This document shows, in pieces, positions 6,434 through 44,851 of a stretch of DNA of 45,859 nucleotides; position 1 is the first letter of the stretch, and each line of letters starts with the position of its first letter. The translations under genes were made by a program, and so were the position numbers. The stretch is from a virus (Duplodnaviria; Heunggongvirae; Uroviricota; Caudoviricetes). Below the pieces are notes generated by a model that was not told the DNA's origin, ran no database searches, and saw only the letters and a list, made by a program, of their open reading frames with translations. The stretch lies in the IMG/VR virus record IMGVR_UViG_2718218168_000002, one strand, 5' to 3'.

Positions 6434-6566
6434 TTTTGGGAACTCCTGGCTGATTAAGTACGTCGATGAGTCGTTTCCATCCGTCACGTAATTTGCGGGT
6501 GATTCGTTCAAGTAAAGATTCGGAAGGGCAGCCAGCAACAGGCCACCCTGCAATGGCATATTGCAT
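6426..6566 (-). CDS. cIII: CIII-like protease inhibitor
   Basis: 46-aa ORF below the track cutoff: MQYAIAGWPVAGCPSESLLERITRKLRDGWKRLIDVLNQPGVPKNG, matching recalled lambda CIII; AAGGAG Shine-Dalgarno upstream. Confidence 0.65.
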   Translation of the reverse strand: MQYAIAGWPVAGCPSESLLERITRKLRDGWKRLIDVLNQPGVPKNG

Positions 6567-6645
6567 GGTGTGCTCCTTATTTATACATAACGAAAACGCC
6601 TCAAGTGAAGCGTTATTGGTATGCGGTAAAGCCGCGCTCAGGCGG

Positions 6646-7894: not shown

Positions 7895-7940
7895 TGCCAA
7901 TCTGTTCCGTTTGGCTTCCAGCTTCCTGCTGATGTGTTTA

Positions 7941-8003
7941 GTATCACCGCTAGTGGTATGCGTGTCAACACCGCCAGAGATAATTTATCACCGCAGATGG
8001 TTA
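7941..8003 (-). promoter_or_regulatory. pL promoter with oL1-oL3 operators (lambda-type)
   Basis: Minus strand TTGACA (7964-7969), 17-nt spacer, GATACT (7941-7946); operator-like 17-mers tatcaccgctagtggta, caacaccgccagagata and tatcaccgcagatggtt. Confidence 0.8.
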
Positions 8004-8160
8004 TCTGTATGTTTTTTATATAGATTTATTTTTTGCAGGGTTGTATGGATTGGGAAGGTGATCGAGAGATCTGAATTGCGATGTTTAGTGAGTTGTATCT
8101 ATTAATTTTCAAATAAATACAATTGGTTATGTGTTTTTAGGTGTGGCGATCGTGAGGCAA

Positions 8161-8186
8161 AGAAAACCCGGCGCTGAGGCCGGGTT
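8161..8186 (-). terminator. Rho-independent terminator ending the cI operon
   Basis: 8-bp stem aacccggc/gccgggtt with a 6-nt loop, then a T-rich tail on the minus strand; 6 nt after the stop of 8192..9064. Confidence 0.5.
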
Positions 8187-8191
8187 GTATA

Positions 8192-9064
8192 TTATTTAAT
8201 TTCTTTTTCCGGTAAATACATTGTCATTTGAACAGGTTTCTTTCCATAGTGTTGAGCAACTCGACTTCTTAGCTCATGCATGGTGTCGCATGTTTTTGCG
8301 ACCCCAATAACCTCCCAGCACCTTGATACAAGCTGCCTTACACCTAGGTTCTCGGTTAACTGTCTATGCCAGTGAACTCCTGCCGCAGGCTTGTTTTCTT
8401 TAAGATATTTAGCCACATCTTCGTCAAGAGTGTCATAAATTAACTCTATAACTAATTTCCCCCACCATTTGGGCCTTGATTGCAATGGGGTACTCCATCC
8501 TGTCAATCTACCAAATTCTTCCCATAACTCATCAGGAAATGTTTTTTCCCATGCTCTTAGTTCCTCAGCGATGAACGCCCTGAGTTTTACTTGGAGAGCA
8601 TCCTCTGCGCGCTCATACTGATACCCAGTAGCCTCATCAATTAGAGCATCTAACCCAGTCCTGGTTAAACCTGCTGTTAATACAGCACATTTAATTGCTA
8701 TTTCTCGCTGTCTATCTGTCAATGGCGCGCCTTTGTATAGCGCCTGTACATAGCCGCGACAAATCAATTCAAATTGCTCAGTCTTAAGTCCTTGGCTTTT
8801 AAATTGGGTTCCTGGTATGGAAAACTCTATGAGTTCGGCCAGGACTAAGTCTTTGTCTATAAAGCCATTAAGTGAGCTAACGCCAATAAATTTAGCCAGG
8901 TCTCCTGACTCCGCATTGGCAATTGCTTTTACAGTTGCTCGCAAAGCTATAACACGATGTCCAGTGTCAAGCACATAGCAATCAATACTTTCACCACCTA
9001 AGTCGATCTTCCCCTTCCATTTTGCGAATGGGGATGGTAATTGCTGTAAATCATCATGTTCCAT
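8192..9064 (-). CDS. Uncharacterised cargo protein in the rexAB slot of the immunity operon
   Basis: 290-aa product from the internal ATG (MEHDDLQQLPSPFAKWKGK...) 32 nt after the cI stop; the full track ORF 8192..9160 would overlap cI by 65 nt. No similarity to RexA/RexB recalled. Confidence 0.6.
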   Translation of the reverse strand: MEHDDLQQLPSPFAKWKGKIDLGGESIDCYVLDTGHRVIALRATVKAIANAESGDLAKFIGVSSLNGFIDKDLVLAELIEFSIPGTQFKSQGLKTEQFELICRGYVQALYKGAPLTDRQREIAIKCAVLTAGLTRTGLDALIDEATGYQYERAEDALQVKLRAFIAEELRAWEKTFPDELWEEFGRLTGWSTPLQSRPKWWGKLVIELIYDTLDEDVAKYLKENKPAAGVHWHRQLTENLGVRQLVSRCWEVIGVAKTCDTMHELRSRVAQHYGKKPVQMTMYLPEKEIK

Positions 9065-9095
9065 TAATTGAATTACCCTTTTTTGCTGCGTTGAA

Positions 9096-9812
<717 letters not shown>

Positions 9813-9819
9813 TTAAATC

Positions 9820-9885
9820 TATCACCGCAAGGGATAAATATCTAACACCGTGCGTGTTGACTATTTTACCTCTAGCGGTGATAAT
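9820..9885. promoter_or_regulatory. oR3-oR2-oR1 operators with divergent pRM and pR
   Basis: tatcaccgcaagggata, taacaccgtgcgtgttg, tacctctagcggtgata; pR -35 TTGACT (9857-9862) and -10 GATAAT (9880-9885); AGGAGG before cro. Confidence 0.9.
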
Positions 9886-10538: not shown

Positions 10539-10682
10539 ATGCGAAAAACGCAGGAAAATAAACGCGTTAATCACCGAAAAGATGTGCTACGTGACCAGTT
10601 TTATCAGGGGGTTAATCCAGCAATAGCTGTGCCACTGAGAGAAATACTTAACAGGTACAAAACTTCGGAGAAGTCAAAATGA
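10539..10682 (+). CDS. Small basic hypothetical protein upstream of the replication initiator
   Basis: 47-aa ORF MRKTQENKRVNHRKDVLRDQFYQGVNPAIAVPLREILNRYKTSEKSK with GAGG Shine-Dalgarno; its stop overlaps the next start (ATGA). Confidence 0.4.
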   Translation: MRKTQENKRVNHRKDVLRDQFYQGVNPAIAVPLREILNRYKTSEKSK

Positions 10683-11563
10683 GCATGAATCTTATGGCTA
10701 AGGCCATGAATATAAAGGTTGGCAACCCACTGAGAAAACTGGTTCTGATTAAACTTGCCGATAACGCCAATGATAATGGCGAATGCTGGCCTTCATATCA
10801 ACATGTCGCTGACCAGTGTGAGGTGAGCAGATCGACAGTAAAAAGTCACATTAGGGCACTGGAAGAGATGGGGCTTTTGAAAAGGGAATTCAGAAGAAAA
10901 GGAGAGCTTAACCAGTCAAACGTTTTTTATCTGACGCTGGATAATGCACAACAAATCCAACCAGAATCAGGTGGGGCAGGAGCTGCCCGGGGTGGGGCAG
11001 GAGCTGCCCGGGGTGGGGCAGGAGCTGCCCGGGGTGGGGCAGGAGCTGCCCGGGGTGGGGCAGGAGCTGCCCGGGGTGGGGCAGGAGCTGCCCTAGGGGG
11101 TGGGGCAGGAGCTGCCCTAGGGGGTGGGGCAGGAGCTGCCCCCAGAACCTATCACTCTTTTGAACCAGTCAATGAACCTAAAAACATTATGTTCGAACAT
11201 GTCCGAACAGAGTGTGAAAAAACTCCTGACCGTCACGAAGAAACCGACAAGGCATTCGAGGAAATATTCTGGTGTGCAGGAATGCGGAAAGCCGGGAAGA
11301 AAAACGCAGCTTCGGCATTCAGAACACAGTTCAGGGAATGGCGTAAAACTACCAGGGGTACGGCAAGCGAGTTTGCCACGATGCTGGCAGAAGACATCGC
11401 ATGCAGGAATGGTAAGCAGTTCGGATTCGACAGGTTGTTACCATCGAGCTACCTGAACGGTCAACGCTGGAACGACGAGAAGCCAGAAACTATTCAACCA
11501 CAATCCAAACCATCATCCGCAATCACCGTATCGAAAACTGGCTACGTGTTTTTCGACAGGTGA
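10679..11563 (+). CDS. Replication initiator protein (winged-helix HTH N-terminus; O-like role)
   Basis: 294-aa ORF at the lambda O position; N-terminal HTH-like segment (SYQHVADQCEVSRSTVKSHIRALEEMGLLKR); internal Gly/Ala-rich linker encoded by an iteron array. Confidence 0.55.
   Translation: MSMNLMAKAMNIKVGNPLRKLVLIKLADNANDNGECWPSYQHVADQCEVSRSTVKSHIRALEEMGLLKREFRRKGELNQSNVFYLTLDNAQQIQPESGGAGAARGGAGAARGGAGAARGGAGAARGGAGAARGGAGAALGGGAGAALGGGAGAAPRTYHSFEPVNEPKNIMFEHVRTECEKTPDRHEETDKAFEEIFWCAGMRKAGKKNAASAFRTQFREWRKTTRGTASEFATMLAEDIACRNGKQFGFDRLLPSSYLNGQRWNDEKPETIQPQSKPSSAITVSKTGYVFFDR
10970..11143 (+). repeat. Tandem 21-bp iteron array inside the initiator gene (candidate origin)
   Basis: Five exact copies of ggtggggcaggagctgcccgg, then three 24-bp variants; each unit holds inverted arms gggcag/ctgccc. 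Confidence 0.6.
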
Positions 11564-16495: not shown

Positions 16496-16586
16496 TTGAC
16501 GCGATGATTTATTCGGGGCTATATTCCCAGCACGCCAGCAAAATCTGGCGTCGGGATTGGAACCCCGGATAGAGACCGCGACAAAC

Positions 16587-16610
16587 ACACGCCGCGAGCG
16601 TGTTTTTTAT
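16587..16610 (+). terminator. Rho-independent terminator upstream of the ORF6N moron
   Basis: Stem acacgc/gcgtgt with loop cgcga, followed by tttttatt. Confidence 0.5.
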
Positions 16611-16769
16611 TGTCGTATGCACGCGCACATCTGAATTATGGTGGGGCGCATGGGGGAGCTGAAAAGCTCGCCGGTCGGTTTCCCGGTAGTTCCAACCCTG
16701 TGCGTCTCACCACCCGATGATTGGAACCTGACGGTGGTGATAGTTTAGAAACCACCAGAGGGCGTCATT

Positions 16770-17450
16770 ATGACAACTCAAATTTCTGTTGAAACTCTCT
16801 CCCCGATCACCCATAACCAGATTCCTGTTATTACCACCGAACTTTTGGCGCAGCTTTACGGCACTGAGCCGGTGCGTATTCGCCAGAATCATCATGAGAA
16901 CAAAGTACGCTTCGTTGAAGGGATACACTTTTTCAAAGTTGTTGGTAATGACCTTAAAGAATTGCGGGTAGCTTTAAACTACTCACAAAATCCCATCTCT
17001 CCCAAAGCCCGCTCCCTCATCCTCTGGACAGAACGAGGCGCAGCACGCCACGCCAAAATGCTCGAAACCGATCAGGCGTGGGAAGTGTTCGAAAAACTGG
17101 AAGACTGCTATTTCAGCCAGTGCGAGAAAAATACAGGTAAACAAGAGAAGAGCACCAACAAGCTTTCCGCAAAAGAAGCAAACAGCCTTGTATGGTTATG
17201 GGATTATGCTAACCGCTCACAGGCATTATTCCGCGAATTGTATCCAGCGCTAAAGCAAATTCAGTCTAACTATTCCGGCAGATGCTACGACTACGGTCAT
17301 GAGTTCTCGTATGTTATTGGAATGGCGAGAGACGTTTTAATCAATCACACACGAGATGTTGATATCAATGAGCCAGACGGACCAACGAATCTTTCCGCAT
17401 GGTTAAGGCTTAAGAACAAAGAATTACCTCCTTCACTGCATCGCTACTGA
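16770..17450 (+). CDS. ORF6N-domain antirepressor-like protein
   Basis: 226-aa ORF; N-terminal pattern [11 protein letters not shown]...[10 protein letters not shown]...[36 protein letters not shown] typical of the ORF6N domain; C-terminal half unassigned. Confidence 0.6.
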
Positions 17451-17518: not shown

Positions 17519-18247
17519 ATGACAATGAACGAGCTGATAAATAGCAATGTCATCAAAATGACTAGCATTGAAATCGCTGAGCTTACAGGTAAGCGTCATG
17601 ACAATGTGAAACGTACCATCGAAACGCTGGCTAAAAATGGTGTTATCCGGCTTCCTCAAATTGAGGTTTCCGAAAGAATCAATAACTTAGGGTTCAATGT
17701 TCAGTACGAGCATTACGTCTTCGAGGGCGAACAAGGTAAGCGAGACAGTATTGTCGTTGTTGCCCAGTTGTCGCCGGAATTCACGGCTCGCCTTGTTGAC
17801 CGTTGGCGAGAGCTTGAAGAAACTGCGGTTAATATCCCCAAAACGCTACCGGAAGCGTTGCGCCTTGCTGCTGACCTTGCTGAGCAGAAAATGCAACTGG
17901 AAAACCAGCTCGCAATTGCCGCACCTAAAGTTGAGTTTGCCGATCGCGTTGGCGAGGCCAGCGGAATTTTGATTGGAAACTTTGCAAAGGTTGTTGGTAT
18001 TGGTCCAAACAAACTGTTTGCGTGGATGCGCGATCACAAAATCCTTATTGCTTCAGGTTCCCGGCGCAATGTGCCAATGCAGGAATATATGGATCGCGGC
18101 TATTTCACAGTGAAAGAAACAGCGGTCAACACAAATCACGGAATACAGATATCGTTCACCACAAAAATCACCGGGCGTGGTCAACAGTGGCTGACCAGAA
18201 AGCTGCTCGATAACGGAATGCTGAAAGTAACAGGGGAGGCTGCTTAA
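17519..18247 (+). CDS. Rha/Ant-family phage antirepressor
   Basis: 242-aa ORF; N-terminal Rha-like segment (MTSIEIAELTGKRHDNVKRTIETL) and a C-terminal AntA/AntB-like region; GAGAGG before the ATG. Confidence 0.65.
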   Translation: MTMNELINSNVIKMTSIEIAELTGKRHDNVKRTIETLAKNGVIRLPQIEVSERINNLGFNVQYEHYVFEGEQGKRDSIVVVAQLSPEFTARLVDRWRELEETAVNIPKTLPEALRLAADLAEQKMQLENQLAIAAPKVEFADRVGEASGILIGNFAKVVGIGPNKLFAWMRDHKILIASGSRRNVPMQEYMDRGYFTVKETAVNTNHGIQISFTTKITGRGQQWLTRKLLDNGMLKVTGEAA

Positions 18248-43457: not shown

Positions 43458-44615
43458 TCACTCCACCTTTTCATCAATCCAGTCCGCCCACCACTGCATC
43501 ATTTCTCTGCGCTTATCTAGATACTGAGCATGGTTGTAAATACCGCGCACAGATCCGCCGTTGGCATGTGCCAGTTGCACCTCAATCGCGTCAGCAGGCC
43601 ATTCGTGCTCGTTCATAATCGTGCTAAATTCATGCCTGAATCCGTGACCGCTTTCCAGACCCTCATAGCCGATTTGTTTGATCACAAGTAGAACCGCGTT
43701 CTCGCAGATTGGCTTCTTCTTATCGTTGCGCCCGGCAAAAACAAACTCTGATACTGGTTTGGTGATGGAGCTTAGCGTAGTGAGAAGTTCAACCACCTGG
43801 TCTGACATCGGGACCACATGAATTTTGCGTCCCTTCATCACACTGGCGTCGATGGTGATAATCCTGTTTTCAAAATCGACGTTCTTCCATAGCATGGAAC
43901 GAAGCTCTTTCGTTCTTAGGGCTGTGTAGCGTAAAACTTTGGTCGCAATGAGCGATACGATACTTCCTGAAAATGTTGCCAGTGCTTTGTTGAATGCCGG
44001 GATCTGGTCTGCAGGAAGAAACGGGAAGTTCTTCTTGCGGTATCCCTTCATGGCGTCTGCAAGGTCAGGTGCCGGGTTGTATTTAGCCCTTCCGGTGACA
44101 ATAGCGTAACGGAAAACTTCGCCGCATCTTCTGCGGGCTTTGTTGGCTCGCTCCATTGCACCGCGATCTTCAAATCTGCGGATTACTTCCAGCAGTTGCA
44201 TCGGCTCAATATCCTGAATTTCAAGGCTGCCGATGATAGGTAAAATGTCGTCATCAAACATTTTTGCAAGTTCATTTGCATAGCCTACTGACCAGACTTG
44301 CTTCTTGTGCTCGTACCATTCCTTGTAAATGGCGCTAAAGGAATTGTTGTTAGACGAAGCCTTTTTCGCTTTTACCGGATCGATGCCAACCGAGATGTCT
44401 TTCCTAGCGGTCCATGCTTTATCCCTTGCCTCCTGCAAAGTCATAAGCGGATATTTTCCGACGGTCAGGATTTTCTCTTTACCGTCAATCTTGTAGCGAA
44501 GCTGCCATACCTTTTTCCCGGATACAGGAACATAAAGGTACAGGCCATTACCATCGAGAAGGCGGTATGGTTTTTCTTTCGGCTTTGCTGCTTCAATCTG
44601 CTTAACGGTGAGCAT
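43458..44615 (-). CDS. intS: Tyrosine integrase (P4/KplE1 IntS type)
   Basis: Start placed at MLTVKQIEAAKPKEKPYRL (track ORF extends to 44651); C-terminal catalytic region HGFRHEF...HANGGSVRGIYNHAQY; adjacent to argW. Confidence 0.85.
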   Translation of the reverse strand: MLTVKQIEAAKPKEKPYRLLDGNGLYLYVPVSGKKVWQLRYKIDGKEKILTVGKYPLMTLQEARDKAWTARKDISVGIDPVKAKKASSNNNSFSAIYKEWYEHKKQVWSVGYANELAKMFDDDILPIIGSLEIQDIEPMQLLEVIRRFEDRGAMERANKARRRCGEVFRYAIVTGRAKYNPAPDLADAMKGYRKKNFPFLPADQIPAFNKALATFSGSIVSLIATKVLRYTALRTKELRSMLWKNVDFENRIITIDASVMKGRKIHVVPMSDQVVELLTTLSSITKPVSEFVFAGRNDKKKPICENAVLLVIKQIGYEGLESGHGFRHEFSTIMNEHEWPADAIEVQLAHANGGSVRGIYNHAQYLDKRREMMQWWADWIDEKVE

Positions 44616-44775
44616 GGGTAAAAATCCGGTGGGTAAAATTATTTTATCCACTTTTTACCCGTCATGGAGTGCGGCTGTCAACGATCTGACGCGAACCATG
44701 ACGAACCGTGAATATACGGAAGGCTTGATATTCAGGGGATTTTGCGGACTGGTACGGATGGGAGCGAACTGATAA

Positions 44776-44851
44776 ATGGTGTCCCCTGCAGGAATCGAAC
44801 CTGCAATTAGCCCTTAGGAGGGGCTCGTTATATCCATTTAACTAAGAGGAC
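44776..44851 (-). tRNA. argW: tRNA-Arg (anticodon CCU)
   Basis: Minus-strand cloverleaf: acceptor GTCCTCT/AGGGGAC, D stem GTTA/TAAC, anticodon stem AGCCC/GGGCT with loop CTCCTAA, T arm GCAGG-TTCGATT-CCTGC, discriminator A, CCA. Confidence 0.9.

What the first reader, a model, noticed from the sequence alone, without database searches (positions are those of the whole stretch)
8161..9064. Single unknown cargo gene replaces rexAB in an otherwise lambda immunity operon
cI, the oL/oR operators, cro and cII read as phage lambda, but downstream of cI a single 290-aa ORF (8192..9064) sits where lambda has rexA-rexB. It starts 32 nt after the cI stop, is co-oriented with cI, and is closed by its own terminator (8161..8186). 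The rex slot is a classic place for lysogen-expressed exclusion or abortive-infection functions. I recognise no catalytic motif in it, so it is a candidate uncharacterised immunity or defense determinant.
Basis: partly seen in the sequence, partly recalled or inferred. Interest (0 to 1): 0.75.

Follow-up and report, generated by a model that had tools for sequence, protein, structure and literature searches.

The report
P63C-family cargo gene behind lambda cI
In this lambda-immunity prophage the rexA-rexB exclusion genes are replaced by one gene from the uncharacterised "P63C" phage protein family, which sits next to prophage repressors in many unrelated bacteria; it is a good but untested candidate for a new single-protein phage-exclusion or lysogeny factor.

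Summary
A 290-aa ORF (8192..9064, minus strand) starts 32 nt after the stop of a cI that is 98% identical to lambda cI. It ends 5 nt before the lambda tImm hairpin. Exactly the rexA-rexB segment (8187..9094) has been swapped.

The gene is not family-less. It matches Pfam P63C (E 2e-22) and PHROG 2384 (E 1e-86), and RefSeq already annotates it in 11 of 5426 complete E. coli genomes. Nothing is known of the family's function, and PADLOC has no model for it.

A confident AlphaFold model (pLDDT 89) shows two parts. The N-terminal alpha/beta domain weakly resembles Bro-N, KilA-N and Dachshund DNA-binding folds. The helical C-terminal half has no solved relative and carries a near-invariant DEATGYQ..R motif.

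Close homologues lie directly behind at least 8 unrelated LexA-type repressors. Distant ones lie behind repressors in Streptococcus prophages and a satellite. The closest analogue is BstA, with the same slot and a similar two-domain layout, but the C-domains are unrelated.

The subfamily is unusually conserved: 73-90% amino-acid identity across alpha-, beta- and gamma-proteobacteria, with saturated synonymous sites.

My best guess (about 0.4) is a lysogen-expressed, BstA-like exclusion protein. A role as a regulator or antirepressor-like factor remains open.

The parts
8192..9064 (-). P63C-family gene: 290 aa plus stop, start ATG 9064. Residues ~13-110 form a Bro-N/KilA-N/DHD-like alpha/beta domain. 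Residues ~115-275 form a helical region containing the Pfam P63C match (161-245) and the near-invariant motif D143-E-A-T-G-Y-Q149..R152.
   Evidence: ORF; P63C, 79.8 bits against a cut-off of 26.1; PHROG 2384, E 1.3e-86; conserved columns; AF2 pLDDT 89.2, pTM 0.71; fold matches.
9065..9095 (-). 31-nt cI-to-cargo spacer with a weak Shine-Dalgarno sequence (AAGGG, 11 nt before the ATG). It holds no terminator, so the gene should be co-transcribed with cI. The alternative PGAP start (TTG at 9103) lies just upstream, inside cI.
   Evidence: no hairpin between 9064 and 9096; PGAP model; homologues start at the ATG.
8157..8186 (-). Intrinsic terminator, the lambda tImm equivalent: hairpin 8165-8186 plus T-tract. 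It forms the right-hand border of the cargo slot.
   Evidence: -14.6 kcal/mol, z -3.0; hairpin conserved in lambda after rexB, in HK97 after gp48, and in SI8.
9096..9809 (-). cI repressor, 237 aa, 98% identical to lambda cI. It is the first gene of the operon that carries the cargo gene.
   Evidence: Pfam HTH_3 + Peptidase_S24 on the identical IMG/VR copy.
9096..9123 (-). Left-hand slot border: the last codons of lambda-type cI (..QWPEETFG*), CCAGTGGCCTGAAGAGACGTTTGGATGA. The same box survives as a non-coding scar about 52-59 nt upstream of the enterobacterial P63C genes that sit behind unrelated repressors, or behind no repressor at all.
   Evidence: Absent from BTP1 (BstA cargo) and SPN9CC.
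9820..9885 (.). The oR operators with pR (and pRM by lambda homology). This is the source of lysogenic transcription through cI and the cargo gene.
   Evidence: pR 9857-9885; inverted operator repeats 9820-9838 / 9865-9883; 92.8% identity to lambda.
7940..8001 (-). The oL operators and pL, immediately beyond the terminator. Together with oR they frame the immunity region.
   Evidence: pL 7968-7940; TATCACCGC repeats.

Best explanation
The gene is lysogen-expressed accessory cargo of the lambda immunity operon. Most likely it is a single-protein phage-exclusion or abortive-infection factor that works in the manner of BstA.

Shown:
- It occupies exactly the rexAB position, between the cI stop codon and the tImm terminator.
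- It is a full-length member of the P63C / PHROG 2384 family.
- Its close relatives sit directly behind at least 8 unrelated LexA-type repressors. Distant relatives sit behind repressors in Gram-positive prophages and in a satellite.
- The predicted fold is an N-terminal alpha/beta domain of the Bro-N/KilA-N/DHD class plus a helical C-terminal half with an invariant DEATGYQ..R motif.

Inferred:
- It is transcribed with cI from pRM/pRE, and so is present in every lysogen.
- The N-domain binds DNA, for example incoming or replicating phage DNA.
- The extremely conserved C-terminal half acts on, or binds, something invariant across Proteobacteria, such as a host replication or transcription component or a small molecule. 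This would block the superinfecting phage.
For: Position:
- Clean replacement of rexA-rexB, with breakpoints at the cI stop and the tImm hairpin.
- A 31-nt spacer with no terminator.
- The other known occupants of this slot are exclusion, abortive-infection or toxin-antitoxin genes: rexAB, hicAB and an NYN-domain gene, and BstA.

Neighbourhood:
- In IMG/VR, 14 of ~33 close-subfamily loci have an S24 repressor as the immediate co-oriented upstream gene. One further distant locus does too. Across these 15 loci the repressors fall into 8 clusters below 50% identity. Binomial P is about 1e-15 against a 1-in-50 expectation.
- The same arrangement occurs in Salmonella SI8, Erwinia Midgardsormr38, Klebsiella, Pseudomonas, Delftia, Yersinia and Stutzerimonas.
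- It also occurs in S. pyogenes Javan515 and the satellite Javan441.
- The remaining copies lie in moron clusters, next to Imm_superinfect, Lom-like OMP and DUF4238 genes.

Architecture:
- AF2 model with pLDDT 89.
- BFVD hits are dominated by Bro-N and KilA proteins.
- The N-domain aligns in register with the BstA KilA-N-like domain at low confidence: hhalign probability 20%, pairwise E 0.001.

Other:
- The gene's GC content is 4-10 points below the surrounding phage DNA in every host examined, as is typical of mobile cargo.
Against: - There is no phenotype, and no hit in PADLOC v2 for this protein or for 55 family members. The only hits fall on fused HTH domains.
- No literature on P63C function was found in the held library.
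- Conservation is extreme: dN 0.08-0.24 with saturated dS. No hypervariable sensor region is evident, unlike most phage-sensing defence proteins.
- Distant family members sit in the nin region of Stx phages, which is expressed during lytic growth.
- The fold class is also that of antirepressors and Bro-type regulators.
Confidence: 0.4

Rival explanations
1. It is a regulator of the lysis-lysogeny circuit rather than a defence gene. It would be an antirepressor-like or co-regulatory DNA-binding protein of the modular Bro-N/KilA-N/Ant class, modulating its own or competing prophages' repressors, or tuning induction.
For: - The N-domain fold matches are Bro-N, KilA and 'repressor domain' phage proteins and DNA-binding DHD/APSES folds.
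- Many long-form members carry a fused Cro/CI-type HTH at the N-terminus. Of 45 members selected for being longer than the query, 11 have YdaS, 10 P22_Cro, 3 HTH_3 and 3 Phage_CI_repr. This fusion mirrors the repressor-P63C gene adjacency.
- In Paracoccus phage Pkon1 the gene lies beside Arc-like regulators and a KilA-N protein, an immI-like setting.
- In 933W the distant homologue sits next to roi.
- Strong purifying selection fits a partner that does not evolve quickly.
Against: - An antirepressor co-transcribed with the repressor it antagonises would be paradoxical.
- The identical protein sits behind repressors of different specificity: L011 against L013, L112 against L113, and 8 repressor clusters overall. 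A repressor-specific partner is therefore unlikely.
- HTH-fused forms still sit downstream of a separate repressor.
- No Pfam Bro-N, KilA-N or ANT match was found at sequence level.
Confidence: 0.25
2. It is a host-directed lysogenic-conversion or lysogeny-maintenance factor. The conserved helical half would bind or modify a universally conserved host component (for example RNA polymerase, the replisome, RecA/LexA or a protease) to benefit the lysogen, with no direct role against other phages.
For: - 73-90% amino-acid identity from E. coli to Paracoccus, Aureimonas and Delftia despite saturated synonymous sites.
- Conservation is concentrated in residues ~115-260.
- The gene occurs in moron clusters beside Lom-like OMP genes and at prophage edges next to host genes.
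Against: - No similarity to any known enzyme or host-factor-binding domain.
- The positional precedents for the cI-N slot are overwhelmingly anti-phage.
- The N-terminal nucleic-acid-binding-type fold is left unexplained.
Confidence: 0.2
3. It is an inert passenger: a selfish or decaying gene that merely hitch-hikes in a recombination-prone slot.
For: - The slot is bounded by conserved recombination-prone flanks, the cI 3' box and the tImm hairpin.
- The gene is rare in E. coli: 11 of 618 genomes with a lambda-type cI.
Against: - The reading frame is intact in all copies seen.
- Purifying selection is very strong: dN far below a saturated dS.
- There are 1987 family representatives at 50% clustering.
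- Positional conservation spans phyla.
Confidence: 0.03

Closest known systems
BstA (Salmonella prophage BTP1; Owen et al. 2021, PMC8585504; PADLOC PDLC02356; Pfam PF26567 BstA-like C-terminal domain)
   Same: - A single ~300-aa gene immediately downstream of, and co-oriented with, the prophage cI-type repressor, ended by a Rho-independent terminator, in the cI-N gap.
- A two-domain layout with an N-terminal KilA-N-like DNA-binding-type domain.
- Homologues in alpha-, beta- and gamma-proteobacteria.
- N-domains align in register at low confidence (hhalign probability 20%).
   Different: - No sequence homology: BLASTP E 1.6, and the PADLOC BstA model does not hit it.
- C-terminal domains are unrelated (hhalign probability 0.2%).
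- The P63C subfamily is far more conserved: 73-90% against 47-77% among the listed BstA homologues.
- No aba-like self-immunity element was shown. The conserved box upstream behaves as a decaying recombination scar.
- An abortive-infection phenotype is demonstrated for BstA and untested here.
Lambda RexA/RexB
   Same: Exactly the same genomic slot and operon: cI - cargo - tImm, read from pRM/pRE. Both are lysogen-expressed.
   Different: - RexAB is a two-gene sensor plus membrane-protein system. This is a single soluble-looking protein.
- The rex DNA is entirely absent from the window, and no PADLOC hit was found.
Bro-N / KilA-N / antirepressor-type modular phage DNA-binding proteins (the class in which the P63C domain was originally defined; from my own knowledge, Iyer, Koonin & Aravind 2002, paper not held)
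   Same: - Built as an N-terminal alpha/beta DNA-binding-type module plus a variable C-terminal module.
- Structural neighbours in BFVD are Bro-N and KilA proteins.
   Different: - Characterised antirepressors are kept silent in lysogens, whereas this gene sits in the repressor's own operon.
Other cargo of the lambda-type cI-tImm slot (hicAB in mEp234/HK106, gp48/gp49 in HK97, an NYN-domain gene in ev099; the Degnan et al. 2007 phages CL707, HK244, HK542)
   Same: The flanks are identical: 95-96% identity to the window over the cI-oR flank and the oL-tImm flank. The variable segment lies between the same two breakpoints.
   Different: The cargo is unrelated. None of the 177 matching phage records carries the P63C gene in this slot at DNA level.

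Membership tests
Pfam P63C (PF10546) / PHROG 2384 | HMM match above the curated gathering score | tested here: met
   P63C scores 79.8 bits against a cut-off of 26.1, E 2.3e-22, residues 161-245. PHROG 2384 gives E 1.3e-86 over residues 6-287. RefSeq product name is 'P63C domain-containing protein'.
Pfam P63C (PF10546) / PHROG 2384 | Full-length collinearity with family members (N-domain plus P63C region as one unit) | tested here: met
   Most of the 150 best representatives align over query residues ~11-285. Near-invariant columns span both halves.
BstA abortive-infection family | Gene directly downstream of the prophage repressor, with its own terminator | tested here: met
   The comparison case, BTP1 cI-bstA, is and PMC8585504.
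BstA abortive-infection family | Sequence or profile homology to BstA (PADLOC BstA model; BstA-like C-terminal domain) | tested here: not met
   BLASTP E 1.6. The PADLOC BstA model hits BTP1 BstA at 1.9e-124 but none of the P63C proteins. hhalign C-domain against C-domain gives probability 0.2%.
BstA abortive-infection family | KilA-N-like N-terminal domain | tested here: inconclusive
   [not shown]
BstA abortive-infection family | Abortive-infection phenotype and a cognate aba DNA self-immunity element at the gene start | not testable with these tools
   The only conserved non-coding element upstream is the cI 3'-end box. It decays in step with gene divergence and is absent outside Enterobacterales, so it looks like a scar rather than a functional element.
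RexAB | Homologous RexA and RexB gene pair | tested here: not met
   Lambda homology stops at 8186 and resumes at 9095. There is a single ORF in the slot and no PADLOC hit.
Type II toxin-antitoxin cargo (e.g. hicAB in the same slot) | Two adjacent small genes, toxin plus antitoxin | tested here: not met
   One 290-aa gene fills the slot. No second ORF lies between the cI stop and the terminator.
Bro-N / KilA-N antirepressor-type proteins | Pfam Bro-N, KilA-N or ANT/KilAC domain match | tested here: not met
   No such hit for the query (E up to 1) or for 45 family members. Only structural resemblance was found.

The most novel reading that the evidence does not exclude
P63C-domain proteins would be a widespread, cross-phylum class of single-gene, repressor-linked prophage and satellite factors. 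They would protect the lysogen against other phages by a mechanism unrelated to known effectors. A Bro-N/KilA-N-like DNA-binding head would be coupled to a structurally novel helical domain, with the invariant DEATGYQ..R site, that targets a component invariant across Proteobacteria. The extreme conservation would then reflect a host-side or universal phage-replication target rather than a variable phage protein.
Probability: 0.35. Interest if true: 0.7.

Novelty: new variant of a known kind. Interest (0 to 1): 0.5.

Why it matters
The cI-N gap of lambdoid prophages has already yielded RexAB and BstA. This gene represents a large family: 1987 representatives at 50% clustering, and more than 570 IMG/VR loci. 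It occupies the same privileged, lysogen-expressed position from E. coli to Streptococcus. It has no assigned function, no solved structure and no entry in the defence catalogue tested here.

If it is an exclusion factor, it adds a new effector fold. It would also be an unusually conserved and therefore broadly transferable one. If it is a regulator, it points to an unrecognised, near-universal accessory of temperate-phage switches. Either way, the experiment is simple: one gene, with coliphage panels.

Tried and rejected
1. **Direct BstA homology.** Rejected by BLASTP, the PADLOC model and hhalign on full-length and split domains.
2. **Known defence family.** PADLOC gave nothing for the query, 4 relatives or 55 family members.
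3. **Solved-structure relatives by sequence.** None; best E 0.44-1, spurious.
5. **HEPN or nuclease motif by eye.** No Rx4-6H or PD-(D/E)xK pattern was recognised. This is my own reading, not a test.
6. **An RNA element in the slot.** No Rfam hit in 7900-9200.
7. **An aba-like cis element.** The conserved cI 3'-end box first looked constrained. A wider scan shows it decays with gene divergence and is confined to Enterobacterales. It is absent from BTP1 and SPN9CC. I read it as a recombination scar.
8. **Literature.** 'P63C', 'P63C domain', WP_000342823, PF10546 and phrog_2384 gave no functional study. The DefensePredictor supplements have no mention. Iyer et al. 2002 and Degnan et al. 2007 are not held.
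9. **dN/dS.** It could not be computed as a ratio because dS is saturated in every pair.

Full report
**1. The observation**

The minus-strand ORF 8192..9064 encodes 290 aa. It begins 32 nt after the last base of the cI stop codon (9096), leaving a 31-nt spacer. Five nucleotides after its TAA comes an 8-bp hairpin with 6 G-C pairs at 8165-8186, followed by TTTTCTTT. The hairpin folds at -14.6 kcal/mol, z = -3.0 against shuffles.

The upstream gene is a cI that is 232/237 identical to lambda cI. pR, pL and the oR/oL operator repeats are in place.

BLASTN against lambda puts the homology breakpoints at 8186/8187 and 9094/9095. Exactly the rexA-rexB segment, and nothing else, has been exchanged: 1399 bp in lambda, 908 bp here.

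The hairpin is the resident lambda tImm terminator. It is conserved after rexB in lambda, after gp48 in HK97 and after the homologous gene in Salmonella phage SI8. So it belongs to the slot, not to the cargo.

RefSeq's PGAP models the gene with a TTG start at 9103, giving 303 aa that overlap cI. Homologues from Klebsiella, Enterobacter and Salmonella start at the position of the ATG, and SI8 has a good Shine-Dalgarno sequence there. I keep 9064 as the start.

**2. How unusual is the replacement?**

Not very. The flanks match 177 phage records at 90-99% identity. These carry rexAB (lambda, SfI), hicAB (mEp234, HK106), unrelated hypothetical genes (HK97, HK244, HK542, CL707) or an NYN-domain gene (ev099) in the same place.

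This variable slot was described by Degnan et al. 2007, as cited in Owen et al. 2021 (PMC8585504).

Among 5426 complete E. coli genomes:
- 618 carry a full-length lambda-type cI;
- 99 carry rexAB;
- 11 carry this gene at 99.5% identity or better.

In those genomes the cI-cargo unit sits in prophages with different replication and N modules. It therefore travels as a unit.

**3. What the protein is**

It is not family-less.
- Pfam P63C matches residues 161-245: 79.8 bits against a cut-off of 26.1.
- PHROG 2384, of unknown function, matches end to end with E 1.3e-86.
- PADLOC v2 and NCBIfam give nothing.

An exhaustive HMMER scan of 1.8 billion 50%-identity cluster representatives finds 1987 relatives at E <= 1e-3. 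Most of the 150 best listed are collinear over residues ~11-285.

Across a diverse alignment the near-invariant positions are G18, V31, L32, R37, G92, A108, Q119, G137, D143-E-A-T-G147, Q149, R152, L157, W172, F176-P177, R186-L187, P198, Y210, L236, G241 and L245.

Structure prediction gave two results:
- With a shallow alignment, AlphaFold2 was uncertain in the C-half (pLDDT 69).
- With the diverse alignment, the model is confident (pLDDT 89.2, pTM 0.71).

The confident model has a beta-beta-beta-alpha... N-terminal domain (residues ~13-110) and an all-helical remainder.

Fold searches gave the following:
- The helical half gives only generic bundle hits.
- Foldseek against BFVD returns weak matches dominated by Bro-N, 'repressor domain' and KilA proteins.

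No solved structure is detectable by sequence.

The protein is therefore a Bro-N/KilA-N/DHD-class putative DNA-binding head on a structurally uncharacterised, highly conserved helical body. Of 45 family members selected for being longer than the query, about a quarter add a Cro/CI-type HTH at the N-terminus.

**4. Where relatives live**

| Relative | Identity to query | Context |
|---|---|---|
| Salmonella P22-like phage SI8 | 90% | Repressor - P63C - (N) |
| Erwinia phage Midgardsormr38 | 61% | LexA-family repressor - P63C |
| Salmonella phage SPN9CC | 27% | cI - P63C - N |
| S. pyogenes prophage Javan515 | 31% | Repressor - P63C - integrase |
| Streptococcus satellite Javan441 | 31% | XRE regulator - DNA-binding protein - P63C - integrase |
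| Gordonia phage Petra | 32% | In the repressor/integrase region |
| Pseudomonas phage Lodos | 37% | In an integrase-proximal cargo cluster |
| Burkholderia phage DC1 | 28% | Repressor - RecE - RecT - P63C, next to integrase |

A scan of IMG/VR with the DEATG[YF]Q motif returned at least 573 confirmed loci. Of the 80 kept, 15 have a Peptidase_S24 repressor as the immediate, co-oriented upstream ORF. Fourteen of these lie among the ~33 loci whose protein is 47% or more identical to the query; the 14 proteins themselves are 59-100% identical.

Across the 15 loci the repressors fall into 8 clusters below 50% identity. The excess over a 1-in-50 expectation gives P of about 1e-15.

Identical proteins sit behind different immunity modules: L011 against L013, and L112 against L113.

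Look-ups of bacterial genomes give the same picture in Klebsiella, Pseudomonas chlororaphis, Delftia, Yersinia and Stutzerimonas. There the S24 repressor is directly upstream, or upstream with at most 2 small ORFs between. The remaining copies are in prophage-edge moron clusters beside Imm_superinfect, Lom-like OMP or DUF4238 genes.

The exception is the distant (28%) homologue in 933W and other Stx phages. It lies in the nin region next to roi.

**5. Cassette history**

The last ~28 nt of lambda-type cI (CCAGTGGCCTGAAGAGACGTTTGGATGA) persist as non-coding DNA upstream of the enterobacterial P63C genes. This holds even where the repressor is unrelated, or absent as in Klebsiella L092. In the E. 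coli, Salmonella and Klebsiella copies the box lies 52-59 nt before the ATG.

Mismatches rise with gene divergence:

| Copy | Mismatches out of 24 |
|---|---|
| E. coli | 0 |
| L013 | 1 |
| Salmonella | 5 |
| Klebsiella | 6 |

The box is missing from the Pseudomonas, Delftia and Paracoccus versions, and from BTP1 and SPN9CC. I read it as a recombination scar. It shows that the enterobacterial cassette once sat behind a lambda-type cI and later spread to other repressor contexts.

The Erwinia copy (3 mismatches out of 24, 160 nt from the ATG) is better preserved than the gene itself. This is not fully explained.

**6. Conservation**

The close subfamily is 73-90% identical in protein between E. 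coli, Salmonella, Klebsiella, Pseudomonas, Delftia, Paracoccus and Aureimonas. Third-codon-position identity is only 34-48%. Nei-Gojobori dS is undefined because of saturation, with dN at 0.08-0.24.

The gene's GC content is 4-10 points below the local phage GC in every host examined. This is old divergence under very strong purifying selection, strongest over residues ~115-260. It contrasts with the listed BstA homologues (47-77%) and with the repressors upstream, which are about 25% identical to one another.

**7. Comparison with BstA**

BstA of Salmonella prophage BTP1 is 307 aa. It has a KilA-N-like N-domain and lies directly downstream of cI with its own terminator. It acts as an abortive-infection protein that localises to phage replication sites (PMC8585504; locus). 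It is the closest analogue in position and layout.

Membership is rejected:
- BLASTP E 1.6.
- The PADLOC BstA model hits BstA at 1.9e-124 but no P63C protein.
- Full-length hhalign probability is 5.7%.
- Split by domain, the N-halves align over 42 columns at 19.7% probability and the C-halves not at all, at 0.2%.

**8. Interpretation**

Position, operon structure, positional conservation across phyla and the cargo-like GC content all say that this is a lysogen-expressed accessory gene. The precedents for this exact slot are exclusion, abortive-infection or toxin-antitoxin functions.

I therefore put a BstA-like single-protein exclusion function first, at about 0.4. The DNA-binding-type head would act as the recognition module, and the conserved helical body as the effector acting on something invariant.

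The fold class, the Cro/CI-HTH fusions and the extreme conservation keep two rivals alive:
- an antirepressor-like or regulatory role (about 0.25);
- a host-directed role (about 0.2).

An inert passenger is essentially excluded by the selection signal.

No tool result bears on phenotype. The held literature contains no functional study of any P63C protein.

**9. Verdict**

The slot and the family are both already catalogued, but the family's function is unknown. Its systematic linkage to repressors, its two-domain model and its unusual conservation make it a worthwhile, cheaply testable candidate. Interest 0.5; novelty: a new variant of a known kind, namely repressor-linked single-gene prophage cargo of the BstA/Rex type.

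Noticed in passing
window 16519-16717 (+), with ORFs 16770-17450 and 17519-18247: Rfam isrK, C4 antisense RNA and the c4-a1b1 target element lie directly upstream of two antirepressor-like genes. In E. coli S51 these are annotated as P22AR C-terminal and KilAC antirepressors. This is a P1/P7-type RNA-controlled second immunity (immI-like) module inside a lambda-immunity prophage.
   Followed up: no
window 10970-11141, inside ORF 10679-11563: A 21-nt tandem repeat, 7.9 copies at 98% match, encodes GGAGAAR peptide repeats in the HTH replication-initiator-like protein. It is probably the origin iterons embedded in the initiator gene, as in lambda O.
   Followed up: no
window 9096-9123; L002 3949-3969; L004 3829-3849; L013/L014 ~2942-2969; L091-L093 ~3947: The 3' end of lambda-type cI survives as a non-coding scar upstream of enterobacterial P63C genes that sit behind unrelated repressors, or behind none. 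In Erwinia it is better conserved (21 of 24) than the adjacent gene (61% nt) and lies at a different distance. This is not fully explained by simple decay.
   Followed up: partly
P63C subfamily (P0001-P0120; L003, L020-L028): Protein identity is 73-90% across alpha-, beta- and gamma-proteobacterial hosts with saturated synonymous sites. The gene's GC content is always 4-10 points below the surrounding phage DNA. A Paracoccus virome paper independently noted that this protein is the sole link between phage Pkon1 and gammaproteobacterial phages.
   Followed up: partly
N-termini of long-form homologues (e.g. P0049, P0054, P0102, Pkon1 p50; P0090, P0093, P0118): There are two recurrent N-terminal extensions. 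One is a KGG-x-ARA..LS.E.R.EIA.KAA.ARW motif. The other is a Cro/YdaS-type HTH domain. HTH-fused forms still sit downstream of a separate repressor.
   Followed up: partly
window 9064 against 9103: RefSeq PGAP annotates the gene with a TTG start at 9103 (303 aa) that overlaps the cI stop. Homologues and the SI8 ribosome-binding site support the ATG at 9064 (290 aa).
   Followed up: yes
window 6521-6579 (-); 44780-44851 (-) with ORF 43458-44651 (-): The lambda cIII thermoregulator RNA element is present. A tRNA gene abuts a 397-aa ORF that I take to be the integrase (not checked) at the right end of the prophage, which is probably the attachment site.
   Followed up: no
L102 7856-8755: In one metagenomic prophage edge, the HTH-fused P63C gene lies two genes from a DUF4238 protein. 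From memory, DUF4238 is a P2/P4-hotspot defence candidate (Rst_DUF4238); I did not check this here.
   Followed up: no
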